A stretch of DNA of 64,000 bases from the NCBI GenBank assembly GCA_964016885.1, contig OZ024741.1, forward strand, positions 359,290,001-359,354,000, written 5' to 3'. This stretch comes from Eledone cirrhosa. Taxonomy: Eukaryota. Positions 6,504-42,130 of the stretch are shown here, piece by piece. A model generated the notes under the pieces. The model made no database searches. It saw only the letters and a program-made list of their open reading frames with translations, and was not told where the DNA came from. The position numbers were made by a program, and so were the translations under genes. Each line of letters starts with the position of its first letter. Position 1 is the stretch's first letter.

Positions 6504-6857
6504 AAAATAAAGATCCGAAGGCATGGTATAAATTTCCAATCATTTTAATCACGACATGTTTCAATAAGAGATAGATCGATCGTGTGGCCATGATCGATTA
6601 TCACTGATCTTGTCAGGTGAAAATGAATTGTCTTCAAATCCTTGATATGAGGGAGAAAATTTATGGGGGACAAAACTCTAGTGAGTGAACATCGTTAAAT
6701 TTTCTCCCTCATATCAAGGATTTGAAGACAATTCATTTTCATCTGACGAGATCAGTGATAATCGATCATGGCCACACGATCGATCTATCTCTTATTGAAA
6801 CATGTGTCGTGATTAAAATGATTGGAAATTTATACCATGCCTTCGGATCTTTATTTT
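6504..6857. repeat. 160-bp inverted repeat (Penelope pLTR-like) carrying hammerhead cores
   Basis: Arms 6504-6663 and 6696-6857 are near-perfect reverse complements with a 32-nt spacer. Confidence 0.9.
6737..6814 (+). ncRNA. Candidate type-I hammerhead ribozyme with extended stem II
   Basis: CUGACGA at 6743-6749; about 47-nt stem II closed by GAU/AUU; GAAA at 6797-6800; CAUGUGUC stem III and cleavage triplet; UCAU/GUGA stem I. Confidence 0.6.
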
Positions 6858-6894
6858 AATATATATAGATATAGATATATGTATGTATGTATAT

Positions 6895-7467
6895 ATAACA
6901 TGCATCCCAGTACAACCTGTCTCATGGTCGGGTCGTTGGCGACTAAACTGGCAACCCCACCAAGGTGTCTTGGAGAGGAGGGTGACTTTGGACATCCTGC
7001 AGGACTAAAAACAAAACCTGTCAAAGGGCAAAGGAGCTCTTAAGAGTCAATGGCCATCCAAAATCACTGGGAGAGATGACCTCCCTTAGCCTTTTCTAGG
7101 AGAAGGAAAACTCTGATATAACACCTGCAACCCTGATGGTATCCAATGATGTTGACTTATTCTTCTTTTTGGTAAATATCATCTTGGTTAAGAGAGTGGG
7201 ACTGGCTTTGTGCAGCGCCTTTGCTCACTATAAAAGCTTCACGGCACAGGCATTGCTTTATATCTGGAGATCTCCCTGCACTTGTCGTCACATGGTACCA
7301 TGGGCCCAGCACTATGTGTCAATAATTGTCACAAGTGTAGTGTTTGTACCAGAGTTTTCAAGTCGCTGGCTGGACTAAAAAGTCACACTCGTTCAGCGCA
7401 TCGGTAGGGGTTCTCCTACATGGATATAAAGTAGTGGCTGTACGCGAAAACGAGTTGGCAGCCACCA
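6895..7467 (+). mobile_element. About 570-bp non-autonomous RTE-derived retroelement ending in C2H2-finger codons
   Basis: Near-identical copies on - at 32966-33375 and 33425-34000; 7336-7407 reads [23 protein letters not shown]; embedded in (TA)n. Confidence 0.7.
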
Positions 7468-8007
7468 TATATATATATATATATATATATATATATATAT
7501 ATATATATATATATATATATGTATGTATATATATATATATGTATGTATGTATGTATATATATATATATATATATATATGTATAAAAAACATGAGAAGAAA
7601 GAGGAATACTGTGCGGTTGCACATGGGTTACATATTATAAAATTAGTCTCTCGTCAGTGATTTGCCAACCATCATTGGTATTTCATCGCATTAAAAATCA
7701 TATACCTCAGGTTGGTGCGAGCAATAACTAAAAGAAGGTATTGGGACAAGTGAGTCGCGTAAAGCGAGTGAGACAAGTAAACAACATAGAAGGATAAAAG
7801 CAAACCGAAGATAGGAAAAAAACAAGCAACATGGTTATCCGGTCAGCATAAGCTGGGTGAATTTCATGAGCGTTCAGAATACAGACCGTCCGACGTGAGT
7901 GAGATGTGAGAAAGAAAGAAAGAACCCCACTACCAACGAAACGGGAGGATATATATATATGTATGTATATATATGTATGTATGTATGTATATATATGTAT
8001 ATATATA

Positions 8008-8352
8008 TGGAGGCACATAGCTTAGTGGTTAGAGCATTGGCCTTGCAATCAAAAGGTTGTAAGTTCAATTCTCAAACCGGGTGATGTGTTGTTTCCTTGA
8101 GCAAGACACTTTATTTCACATTGCTCCAGTTTACTCAGCTGTAGAAATGAGATGATAGGGACTGGGGTCCATATTATTCCACTGCAAAGTGGTCGTGGAG
8201 GTGCCACGGCAAAACAGCACCCAGCACTCACTGTAAATGAGGTTGGTGTTAGGAAGGGCATCCAGCTGTAGAAATCAAGCCAGAATCAGTTCCCGTCCCA
8301 CCCTTGCAAGCAGGGAAAAGCGGACGTAAAATGATGATGATGATGATGATGA
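8008..8352 (+). mobile_element. tRNA-derived SINE (CORE-like body, RTE-like tail, (GAT)n end)
   Basis: A box TAGCTTAGTGG, B box GTTCAATTC; copies at 19672-20015(-), 30555-30871(-), 54251-54558(+) and 63839-64000(+). Confidence 0.85.
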
Positions 8353-8894
8353 CATATATATAAACAACTGCCATCAAGTCGGCTGCTCCCAAATCAAATT
8401 GATCCTCTATTTTCTATTTTTCTTTTTTTCTTTTTTCTATTTTCTATTCTCTATTTGGGTTCAATGTAATCAATCCTGTTTCATAATTTTGCAAATAACC
8501 CCTGATGAAATCATTTAGTCTTGCATCATAATTGGATGATAAGGCTGGGCCATTGAAATATGTACTGTGCTTTCTCGGATTTAAAATTCTTAAATAAATT
8601 TTCCAGTTCAGCCTTCTGTTGCTGTTTTAGTGAATACGTAACTCTGTTCCTGCACCAGTCACAGGATACCACATCTACGAAGGGGTATTTGAATAGCATT
8701 GAGTGCTTTAATTAATTTGTTGCATCATTGTTTACCAGCCCAACCACCGGTTCTACCCATTGGTAAACAGCTGAACATAAATGGTATATATATATGGAAG
8801 AAATTGTGGACAACACGTACTTCACCTTCCACCACCACACATACAGACAGACATCACTTATATGAACCAGCTGGAATGCCGAGCCCTCAACATT

Positions 8895-39413: not shown

Positions 39414-39458
39414 GTAAGTGGATTGATTATTTTTGTGAGAAACAGAACTATTTTCCTT

Positions 39459-39917
39459 ACCCTTTTGTTATCAAACTGCCATTGGTGCCATGATACAACT
39501 GTTTATTTCAAGGTGTTTATATTTATCTTTAAAAAACTCTATCACAATTTTATATAAAAAACCTTTATTAAGTTATGCTCCAAATACCAACTTAATAATG
39601 AGAAATTTAGTTTCATCATTGGAATTCTTGATTATCTTTTCATAATTATTTGAAAATTATAAGCAGTGTCTTACATTAGAAATATGGTAATGAAAGGGTT
39701 AACCCTTTTATTACTATATTTCTACTGTAAAACTTCCTATAGTCTTCATATAATTTGGGAAATAATCAAGAATTTGGAATTTTAATAACATAGTTAACTT
39801 TCTCATTATTAAGCTGGAGTTTGGAATATAACAAAGGTTCTTACATAGAATTCTGATGGAAAATAGTTTTGTATCAAAGAACCAGGGTCAGTTTCAAGAG
39901 GTTTTGCATCAAAAGGG
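39459..39917. mobile_element. Two family-2 TTAA MITEs in inverted orientation sharing one TTAA (39699-39702)
   Basis: GAAAGGG-TTAA-CCCTTTT junction; the arms are diverged reverse complements. Confidence 0.75.
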
Positions 39918-40843
39918 CTAATAGTCTATATCTGACCATAATATTACAGTGTGTACTATAAGTATTAAGCCATAAGAGGTCTCAATATTTTTATATAAAA
40001 TCAATTAACAGTCCTTCTCCATTCATAAATTACCAAAGGGATTAGCCTTGCAGAACACATAATAGGCTTCAACTCATAATGGAGTCCTATTTTGCCCTAC
40101 CTGGTGTCAACCATTTTATCCACCTCTTACAAAATACAGGGATACATTATACCTAGTCTAAACTGAATACATACAGAGGATGCTCTACCTAAAACACAAC
40201 AAACATTTTAAGGCCACTTTCCGGCTAAAGTAAGGTTAACCTTGCAGTGCCCCATGACAAGCTTCATACTCTTCGTGGAGTCCTTTTTAAGGGAATGGTT
40301 TACAATTAGATGCTGTTCCTAGTACCAATCCTTTGAGTCATTTCTTACAATATGCAAGGATAGAGTGTACCTATTCTAAAATGGATACACACACCCTTAA
40401 AAACAAAAAGGTAAAGACCCCTTTTGGTTACGAATGACCATGGGATTTGCACCTAGAAAGGTCCTCTGCGAGGCACAAGTCTGGGAAAGGTTGTTTGTGG
40501 AAGACCAACAGTCGCCCATGCATACCATCCTCCCCTCTCCATGCCACTGATGTTGTTCAAGGGAAAGGCAAAGATCGATACTGCTTGGCACCAGTGACAT
40601 CGCAACTCATTTCTACAGCTGAGTGAACTGGAGAGATGTGAAGTAAGGTGTCTTGCTCAAGAACACAACGCAAGACTAGGTCCAAGAATCAAATTCACAA
40701 CCCCACGATTGTAAGCCCGCTGCTCTAAGGCATACCCTTATCACATTACAATAAAGGAGTGTGGGGGAAAATACAGAAGTTCATACATGTTTTATAAAAC
40801 TAAATTTTTACCATCATGTTTGTATTCCTTCCTATCTTTTCAG

Positions 40844-41074
40844 ATATTGCCAACATATTTTCATGCAGCCATAAGAGATCTCAATATTTTTATATAGAGT
40901 CAATTAATAGTCCTTGTCCATTCATAAGTTACCCATGTAAAACTCAAGAGGATCTTCATAGTGGAAAATGTTTTCATTCACATGGTCATATTGGAATAAT
41001 GGGGTTCTCAGCTGATAAAAGCTTTGCTTCTGGCAAACATATGCTGGAGACTTATGCTACAACCCCATACTGTG
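40844..41074 (+). CDS. Lipase B exon 6 (catalytic His)
   Basis: cag/gtaagt; IANIFSCSHKRSQYFYIESINSPCPFISYPC...MGFSADK...TPYC. Confidence 0.96.
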
Positions 41075-41830
41075 GTAAGTCTTAACTTCAAATTAGGTAA
41101 TATTTTAATTTTACAATTTTTTTTTTTAAATGACTCTCTTTGTCCTCTTTTCTGACAGTTAAGTTACGGGACATAAACAAACAATAAATGTAAATACACA
41201 TATATATATATATATCATCATCATCATCATTATTGTTTGTTATGTCCACTCATTTATGCTAGAATGGGTTAGACAGGATGGTTTGAGACAATGTTTTACA
41301 GCCAGATGTCCTTCCTGACACCAACCTATTTAGTCACCTTTTACAACACACAGGGATACAGTCTACCTATTCTAAAAAAATGGATATACATATATATTGT
41401 TTCACTTGCTTCAGGCATGAGATTGCAGGGATGCTGGGACACCACTATAAAAGGATTCAGCCAATCATATCAACCCAAATACTTAATTTTTTCAAACCAG
41501 AAAAATTTTACTGACCTGATTTTGTCAAACCACTAAGTTATGGGGCATTAGCACCAGTATGTACATGGAGACACAAACACATACATTATATATGTATGTG
41601 TGTGTGAGTGTGTGTGTAACCCGGGTTAACCACAGTAAGGTACTCAATACATAGCACAGGGCTTTCCTGATGATTTCCTCCAGATGAAACAGTTCTAGTC
41701 CTGTAGAAGCCATTTCTATATTGAATATATATAGTTTAGGGATTGTAACATCAAGTTACTGTAGGTTCACCAAAGTGAGCACCCGATGCATAGTTTCCAG
41801 TAGGTATGCTGGTGTTGTACTAAGCAGAGT

Positions 41831-42130
41831 ATAATAATAATAATATGGACAAGGTGTCAAATTTTCATTAAGTTTATTGAAGTGTGACATGTGTTTCACG
41901 ATTGATCAGCTCAAGATTTTATCTGTATCGATCAGGCCTGACTCTAGAATCAATAGTTCATCAGATTTTGATTAGCGCCATATTGTGCTAACAGAAGTCA
42001 GATAAGCTTTTGATTCCAAAGTCGGGCCAGATCGATACAGATCAAACCTTGAGCTGATCAATCAGGAAACACGTCACACTTCAATAAACATAATGAAAAT
42101 TTGACACCTTGTCCATATTATTATTATTAT
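41831..42130. repeat. About 135-bp inverted repeat in (AAT)n with a hammerhead core (41886-41964, -)
   Basis: Arms are reverse-complementary; the minus strand reads CUGAUGA-AC.AUUGAU...AUCAAU.GU-GAAA-CACAU-GUC. Confidence 0.8.

What the first reader, a model, noticed from the sequence alone, without database searches (positions are those of the whole stretch)
6504..42130. Recurring hammerhead-bearing mini-elements in microsatellites, several with a greatly extended stem II
Seen: hammerhead-like cores CUGANGA...GAAA...UH occur in at least seven unrelated short sequences: 6743-6808(+), 8502-8564(+), 10195-10223(+), about 12858-12899(-), 13363-13390(-), 20157-20190(-)/41667-41700(+) and 41886-41964(-). 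Most sit next to (TA)n or (AAT)n, and several lie in inverted repeats. Three have a 45-60 nt base-paired stem II instead of the usual short hairpin, together with short, near-palindromic stem III (ACAUGU, AUAUGU). Known: Penelope-like elements carry minimal, dimer-forming hammerheads in their pLTRs and often insert as inverted ends. Inference: this genome hosts a diverse set of non-coding, ribozyme-bearing PLE derivatives (retrozyme-like) with an atypical long-stem-II architecture. They could be mobilised by RT+GIY-YIG elements like the one at 8895.
Basis: partly seen in the sequence, partly recalled or inferred. Interest (0 to 1): 0.75.

Follow-up and report, generated by a model that had tools for sequence, protein, structure and literature searches.

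The report
Long-armed hammerheads in Penelope-type retroelement stubs
These motifs are pieces of seven abundant repeat families, likely all Penelope-type jumping genes, and four carry a predicted self-cutting hammerhead RNA with one arm stretched to 46-60 bases; one family is the end of a protein-coding element, another is a 491-base non-coding repeat that likely borrows such an element's enzyme, and cutting itself is untested.

Summary
The hammerhead motifs are real and far above chance. Each motif belongs to a repeat family with hundreds to thousands of candidate copies. They are not all non-coding minis. Family A (6743) is the pLTR of a 4.45-kb Hydra-clade Penelope-like element with its own RT/EN ORF. 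G likely is too (one locus). The 10195 motif ends the 8895 element, which is not Hydra-type and is unlikely to be the helper. Only D is a shown retrozyme-like unit: 491 nt, no ORF, 23 of 74 arms longer than one unit. A and D have two fixed 3' ends, and inverted pairs use one of each (39 of 46), fitting priming from both nicked strands. Long stem II is common here: 23 of 27 clusters have 31-115 nt spacers that fold as hairpins, and 31-nt sister families covary. Published Hydra spacers are at most 26 nt; Rfam misses these. Cleavage is untested; cut-site footprints are weak. The scan already noted such ribozymes elsewhere in this genome and in another. New variant of a known kind.

The parts
6363..6663 (-). 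Family A long arm (ends about 188 nt past the predicted cut); its hammerhead at 6616-6553 has a broken core (G8A)
6662..6857 (+). Family A short arm (ends about 59 nt past the cut); pLTR piece of a Hydra-clade PLE
6743..6808 (+). Hammerhead A: stem I 4 bp, 47-nt stem II, stem III ACAUGUGU, cut predicted after 6808
   Evidence: (stem II z -2.5)
8388..8793 (+). Family B arm with decayed hammerhead at 8502-8566 (46-nt stem II; stem I lost in this copy)
8800..10318 (+). 5'-truncated canonical PLE (YVDD RT piece, stop at 9323-9325, GIY-YIG piece to 9823) with short hammerhead C at 10195-10223; outer limits approximate
12745..13263 (-). Family D arm, about 1.06 copies of a 491-nt non-coding unit
12828..12899 (-). 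Hammerhead D: stem I 5 bp, U-U closed 53-nt stem II, stem III ACCGCGGU, cut predicted between 12828 and 12827
   Evidence: (stem II z -4.7)
13255..13483 (-). Family E arm with minimal hammerhead at 13390-13363 (A6C in this copy)
20047..20196 (-). Family F arm with tail; hammerhead 20190-20152, core broken (A6U)
41588..41733 (+). Family F insertion: inverted tail arm 41659-41588 plus direct arm 41657-41733 with hammerhead 41667-41705 (12-nt stem II, 16-nt stem III)
41735..41968 (-). Family G long arm with tail; hammerhead 41964-41886 (60-nt stem II, 1-2 bp stem I); lower limit read by eye
41995..42130 (+). Family G short arm; hammerhead 41999-42075 with broken core

Best explanation
The motifs are decayed stubs of several repeat families, likely all Penelope-like retroelements and their non-coding parasites, and the long-stem ones carry a hammerhead fold whose stem II is a 46-60 nt hairpin and which is predicted to cut only as a dimer. 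Shown: family A is the terminal repeat of a 4.45-kb Hydra-clade element; family D is a 491-nt ORF-less unit inserted as circularly permuted, often more-than-unit copies; both end at one of two fixed sites past the ribozyme, next to (TA)n, and head-to-head pairs use one end each. Inferred: a Hydra-type RT/endonuclease nicks both strands at (TA)n and starts one cDNA from each of two internal RNA sites; the two cDNAs are joined head to head. Most templates were uncut or re-ligated, since nearly all arms run across the cut site. The ribozyme would cut rarely, when two palindromic stems III pair, and for D would release monomers that can circularise. The long stem II is likely kept for its shape (near-core register and mismatches), not its letters.
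For: Full element with two direct pLTRs, an inverted arm and an ORF between them: L283. 28 of 29 endonuclease loci are followed by the A 3' UTR. Hydra motifs RWK, DKT, CxCX5C, CxxC and CxH are present (definitions in PMC8557442 section 11). D: dimer period 491 nt, longest ATG ORF 46 codons, arms up to 921 nt; 23 of 74 arms exceed one unit. One short plus one long end in 24 of 29 D pairs and 15 of 17 A pairs; 11 of 12 and 7 of 8 in searches that forced neither end. This fits two RT start sites and extension of both strands in an anole PLE (PMC11167929 passages). With no stem II rule, 23 of 27 clusters in 1.12 Mb of loci have spacers of 31-115 nt, median folding z -2.7, 19 of 23 below -1.5; shuffles give 0.5 hits per replicate. 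Twelve 31-nt sister sequences show two-sided changes at 10 of 10 stem II pairs, 0 of 500 shuffles as high, around an invariant C-C mismatch. Stem III costs +1.9 to +4.7 kcal/mol as a hairpin but gives -2.2 to -14.1 as a self-duplex. 4 of 74 D arms start within -3..+1 of the cut; genome-wide 9 such junctions against 3 at a control site.
Against: No cleavage or RNA data. The cut-site footprint is weak: the window was chosen after looking, 9 versus 3 is not significant, and 0 of 30 A arms picked by the post-cut sequence start at the cut (3 of 97 overall). Family A shows no compensatory change in 37 copies. G's 8 covarying pairs (7 of 500 shuffles) may come from CpG decay and relatedness. The strong covariation is in 31-nt sister families, not in the window's own families. 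G has only a 2-bp stem I and B an A-C pair at 10.1-11.1. G's link to an ORF rests on 1 of 4 long copies, and two others share a different upstream sequence. No ORF was linked to B, D, E or F. The loci were chosen by family, so their motif density is not a genome average.
Confidence: 0.72

Rival explanations
1. The long-stem motifs no longer cut. The fold is kept only as a binding or positioning site for the element's protein, or is neutral baggage of pLTRs.
For: Ribozyme-dead mutants of an anole PLE still insert in vitro and no RNA ends were seen at its cut site (PMC11167929 passages). Eight of nine Xenopus retrozyme dimers did not cut (bioRxiv 10.64898/2026.07.22.740005 part 3). Most arms cross the cut site. 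Weak stem I in G, A-C closure in B.
Against: Core letters, A15.1-U16.1, a non-G H17 and a palindromic stem III are kept across 27 dissimilar clusters; stem I also covaries (5 of 8 pairs); small excess of junctions at the cut in D.
Confidence: 0.2
2. One reading: all seven are independent non-coding retrozyme-like minis moved by elements like the one at 8895.
For: D is non-coding and tandem; F arms are about 140 nt with a sharp 5' start; the 8895 element also sits between TA repeats.
Against: A has its own ORF; G, E and B extend about 830, 750 and 300 nt upstream of the ribozyme with ragged 5' ends; D and F show the U-U closed stem II and 4-bp stem III listed for Hydra-clade ribozymes; the 8895 protein is of another type.
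Confidence: 0.06
3. D spreads from read-through transcripts of genomic tandem copies, with no circular RNA stage.
For: Longest arms are under two units (921 nt); three arms start at one cut site and run through the next uncut ribozyme, as a partly cut linear dimer would give.
Against: No array longer than about two units was seen among 74 arms, so source arrays are not evident; metazoan retrozyme monomers circularise (PMC7229834 section 17).
Confidence: 0.4
4. Chance matches in AT-rich, hairpin-prone DNA.
For: Several window copies fold no better than shuffles; Rfam reports no hammerhead.
Against: 121 strict long hits against 0 in shuffled loci; family-level conservation; hairpin spacers without being asked for.
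Confidence: 0.01

Closest known systems
Hydra-clade Penelope-like elements and their hammerheads (Craig et al. 2021, PMC8557442, section 11 and Files S1/S2)
   Same: RWK, DKT and CxCX5C motifs, no CCHH, (TA)n insertion, inverted 5' arm plus tail, 8-10 nt self-complementary stem III, frequent U-U at the base of stem II.
   Different: Listed Hydra spacers are 12-26 nt by my count from File S2, here 46-60 nt in the window and up to 115 nt in loci; unit A is 4.45 kb, against under about 3 kb, with a roughly 1.4-kb 3' UTR.
Metazoan non-LTR retrozymes (Cervera and de la Pena 2020, PMC7229834; Li et al. 2026, bioRxiv 10.64898/2026.07.22.740005)
   Same: D is a non-coding, AT-rich unit with one type I hammerhead per repeat, found as partial tandems.
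   Different: D is 491 nt (about 220-350 in the passages read), dispersed rather than in arrays, has a 53-nt stem II, and inserts with PLE-type twin ends; circles not shown.
[quoted passage not shown]
   Same: C and E match: extra unpaired A after the core, short palindromic stem III.
   Different: A, B, D and G lack the minimal form; helix II there is 7-8 bp at most in the parts read.
Spike-moss PLE-X1 ribozymes flagged as deviating (PMC8557442 File S2)
   Same: About 48-54 nt between the core halves: a precedent for long stem II regions in PLEs.
   Different: Plant, endonuclease-less, rDNA-targeted elements; two entries, not a dominant class.

Membership tests
Hydra-clade PLE (family A) | Single ORF with RT and C-terminal GIY-YIG, between direct pLTRs | tested here: met
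   L283: pLTR, ORF 1742 to about 4480 (broken), UTR, pLTR; longest open frame 699 aa in L213. Pfam gave no RT or GIY-YIG hit on two pieces; the call rests on motifs.
Hydra-clade PLE (family A) | RWK and DKT motifs | tested here: met
   L229 and L241 RWK; DKT in L229, L213
Hydra-clade PLE (family A) | CxCX5C linker, CxxC and CxH around the EN E and N, no CCHH | tested here: met
   read
Hydra-clade PLE (family A) | (TA)n insertion | tested here: met
   65 of 76 ends
Hydra-clade PLE (family A) | Generally under 3 kb | tested here: not met
   unit about 4.45 kb; the paper gives this as a tendency
Hydra-clade PLE (family A) | Placement in the Hydra clade of an RT tree | not tested
   no reference proteins were held as sequences; motif comparison only
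Non-LTR retrozyme (family D) | Non-coding tandem unit with one type I hammerhead per unit | tested here: met
   491-nt period, longest ATG ORF 46 codons, L121 dimer with two ribozymes
Non-LTR retrozyme (family D) | Canonical short helix II with loop 1-loop 2 contact | tested here: not met
   53-nt stem II; possible 6-bp pseudoknot instead, p 0.022 uncorrected, 1 of 18 parsed families
Non-LTR retrozyme (family D) | Self-cleavage and circular RNA monomers | not testable with these tools
   no RNA holder listed
Type I hammerhead ribozyme (A, B, D, G) | CUGANGA, GAAA, UH core in a three-stem junction | tested here: met
   family level for A, B, D; G has only a 2-bp stem I
Type I hammerhead ribozyme (A, B, D, G) | Stem covariation | tested here: inconclusive
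   none in A, weak in G, strong in 31-nt sister families
Type I hammerhead ribozyme (A, B, D, G) | Match to Rfam hammerhead models | tested here: not met
   none among 99 matches at E up to 5 in the window; none at gathering score in 5 loci
Type I hammerhead ribozyme (A, B, D, G) | Cleavage at the predicted site | tested here: inconclusive
   genomic footprint only:
Neptune-clade PLE (my first label for A) | CX2-5CxxC linker and CCHH endonuclease | tested here: not met
   A has CxCX5C and no CCHH

The most novel reading that the evidence does not exclude
Hydra-clade PLEs and their retrozyme parasites in this lineage use an active, dimer-gated hammerhead subclass whose stem II is a free-length (26-115 nt) structured domain with conserved near-core mismatches or a pseudoknot, serving as a docking site for the element's RT; standard descriptors and Rfam miss the class, so animal ribozyme counts are underestimated, and twin internal priming explains the inverted ends.
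Probability: 0.3. Interest if true: 0.7.

Novelty: new variant of a known kind. Interest (0 to 1): 0.5.

Why it matters
If these cut, hammerhead stem II tolerates large structured inserts in nature, and published searches (core spacer 7-17 nt in PMC8557442 methods) miss a major class in some animal genomes. Young, abundant families (A about 97%, D about 95% identical) give ready substrates for two open questions: whether PLE ribozymes act in vivo, and how PLE inverted ends and tails form. The twin-end counts make the second directly testable.

Tried and rejected
Neptune label for A: dropped after the supplement showed Hydra motifs. Rfam and Pfam on A's ORF pieces gave nothing useful. The N-terminal query was out of frame and was redone. 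The pair count used a mis-registered structure and is void (redone). The G arm list was swamped by an unrelated repeat in the reference; only its negative starts were read. Hydra ORF pieces just downstream of B (L179) and G (L177) were not taken as links, as they start mid-ORF. No ORF found upstream of E. A general pseudoknot between the 5' flank and stem II loops was not supported (1 of 18). No homology between D and the 557-nt unit in L148. Lunse et al. (PMC5785218) is not held and was not seen.
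Full report
Setting. The window lies in a 3.0-Gb animal assembly, G000:C2:359290001-359354000. It is repeat-rich with many (TA)n tracts. I label the seven motifs A (6743), B (8502), C (10195), D (12899), E (13390), F (20190 and 41667) and G (41964).

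Observation. All cores are present. Genome searches gave 1351, 1114, 1527, 644, 2509 and 2023 first-look candidates for A, B, D, E, F and G, of which 40 each were scored; these are not copy numbers. Alignments of 20-30 copies per family fix the parses. B's cut lies 2 nt further and the window copy has lost stem I. D was mis-read: the true motif has a perfect 5-bp stem I, a 53-nt stem II and an 8-nt palindrome, and ends at 12828. F has a 16-nt stem III and a GUA site. E and C are short minimal forms. Of ten window copies only A(+), C and D pass my descriptor, against 0.23 hits per shuffled window; most others carry core or stem mutations. Rfam reports no hammerhead in the window or in five loci.

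Is the long stem II real? I dropped all stem II rules and asked only for the core, a self-complementary stem III of at least 8 nt and a stem I of at least 3 bp. In 1,122,754 bases of loci this gave 219 hits in 27 clusters; 23 clusters have spacers of 31-115 nt, median z -2.7, 19 of 23 below -1.5. Shuffled loci gave 0.5 hits per replicate over six replicates. These loci were picked by family, but most clusters come from their flanks. Within A, 95.7% of cells pair but there is no compensatory change in 37 copies, as expected for neutrally decaying copies. G plus relatives shows 8 pairs with two-sided changes (7 of 500 shuffles), some probably CpG decay. Twelve ungapped 31-nt sister sequences give the clearest result: 10 of 10 stem II pairs and 5 of 8 stem I pairs change on both sides, 0 of 500 shuffles match, and a C-C mismatch is invariant. 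These twelve are related to each other in groups and share stem III with B; they are not the window's own copies.

What carries the motifs. A extends upstream into an ORF. A protein search returned 150 scored matches; 28 of 29 fetched loci other than the query have A's UTR right behind the endonuclease. L283 holds the whole arrangement: inverted arm, pLTR, ORF starting about 240 nt past the cut, UTR, pLTR, unit about 4.45 kb. All ORFs seen are broken; the longest open frame is 699 aa. I first called this Neptune. Earlier scan notes pointed to the Hydra clade, and the supplement and section 11 of PMC8557442 list RWK, DKT, CxCX5C, CxxC and CxH, all present in A. No tree was built. G extends about 830 nt upstream in four copies; in L174 a Hydra-type endonuclease end abuts it, while L176 and L177 share another upstream sequence. 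E reaches about 750 nt and B about 300 nt upstream of the ribozyme with no ORF found. C ends the 8895 element, whose RT has YVDD, which has a stop at 9323, and whose EN piece does not align significantly with A's protein. D is different: every copy maps inside one 491-nt circularly permuted unit with no ORF above 46 codons; L121 is a dimer; 23 of 74 arms exceed one unit, the longest 921 nt.

Insertion anatomy. A arms end at about +59 or +188 from the cut (85 of 97 in these bins) and D arms at +81 or about +190 (70 of 74). B, F and G also show a short and a long end. Ends abut TA or TTA repeats in 65 of 76 and 41 of 47 cases. In head-to-head pairs one arm has the short end and the other the long end in 24 of 29 (D) and 15 of 17 (A); in the searches that forced neither end, 11 of 12 and 7 of 8. 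An anole PLE nicks and extends both strands and starts at two internal RNA sites that define the tail (PMC11167929, passages). I infer one cDNA per nicked strand, each primed at a different site, joined head to head; earlier notes proposed this reading and I counted it here. It explains why short ribozyme-bearing stubs are so common without each being a separate non-coding element.

Does it cut? Untested. The 8-nt stems III are unfavourable as hairpins and favourable as self-duplexes, the known dimer logic (PMC4209133 parts 1-2; PMC6765202 passages). U-U at the base of stem II, as in D and F, is tolerated in tested hammerheads (PMC3088659 and PMC7229834 passages). Four of 74 D arms start at -3..+1 (binomial p 0.013, window chosen after looking). 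A genome-wide pattern found 9 junctions at the cut against 3 at a control site. For A, 3 of 97 arms start there, and 0 of the 30 chosen by post-cut sequence. This is a hint of occasional cutting, no more. No RNA run was listed. D has a possible 6-bp pairing between the 5' flank of stem I and a stem II internal loop (p 0.022 uncorrected, 1 of 18 families).

Comparison with print. File S2 of PMC8557442 lists Hydra-clade ribozymes with the same stem III type and U-U closure but spacers of 12-26 nt by my count; two spike-moss PLE-X1 entries have about 48-54 nt and are flagged as deviating; eight Naiads are marked half-core at 35-50 nt. Retrozymes as PLE derivatives are published (PMC7229834 passages and section 17; bioRxiv 10.64898/2026.07.22.740005 parts 1 and 3 of 5, supplements closed). 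'Long helix II' in PMC13725137 means 6-8 bp (passages). Six searches showed no paper on 45-115 nt stem II in animal PLE ribozymes; subscription papers are missing, Lunse et al. was not held, and supplementary figures were not visible.

Verdict. Real motifs, partly mis-parsed. A known association (PLE pLTR hammerheads, retrozymes) in an unusual form (long structured stem II). New variant of a known kind, interest 0.5.

Noticed in passing
window 22092-25713 (+): Long GC-rich ORFs with gag-, protease-, RT- and integrase-like stretches, resembling an LTR retrotransposon (recalled resemblance; only listed).
   Followed up: no
window 8007-8334, 19689-20016, 54260-54538, 63838-63988: Copies of a roughly 330-bp repeat with weak tRNA matches, likely a tRNA-derived SINE.
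   Followed up: no
window 15132-15593, 20549-20914, 52805-53461; 30964-31425, 34089-34580, 62088-62765: ORF fragments resembling DNA transposases (first three) and LINE RT ends (last three); recalled resemblance.
   Followed up: no
window 27820-28563: Four-copy 187-bp tandem of a repeat that is also dispersed.
   Followed up: no
L148 850-1480 (+): 557-nt tandem unit with a 51-nt stem II hammerhead; a 7-nt stretch 5' of stem I is complementary to the stem II internal loop by eye, like the 6-bp match in D.
   Followed up: partly
window 12840-12896, loose ends in runs X1-X3: Contigs suggest sister families of D with different letters in the near-core part of stem II but the same pyrimidine internal loop; low-agreement loose ends, not linked in one contig.
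   Followed up: partly
L217 7538 (+), L146 291 (+), L109 2289 (+), L053 636 (+): Hammerheads with 88-115 nt stem II domains, some branched, folding z down to -7.
   Followed up: partly
L124, L065, L098, L129, L022 and others: Very common 24-36 nt stem II families with stem III AUAUGUAU and a conserved pyrimidine mismatch at the fourth position of stem II, also seen in B.
   Followed up: partly
family A, 128-150 nt before the cut (window 6662); family F, 44-52 nt before the cut: 5' ends cluster (16 of 97 A arms at -150 to -133; 31 of 68 F arms at -52 to -44, the F reference starting at about -53), which may mark RNA start sites.
   Followed up: partly
family A 3' UTR, about 140 nt before the main core (e.g. 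L004 near 1430): A second CUGANGA followed by a short hairpin but no GAAA; possibly a relic ribozyme half.
   Followed up: no
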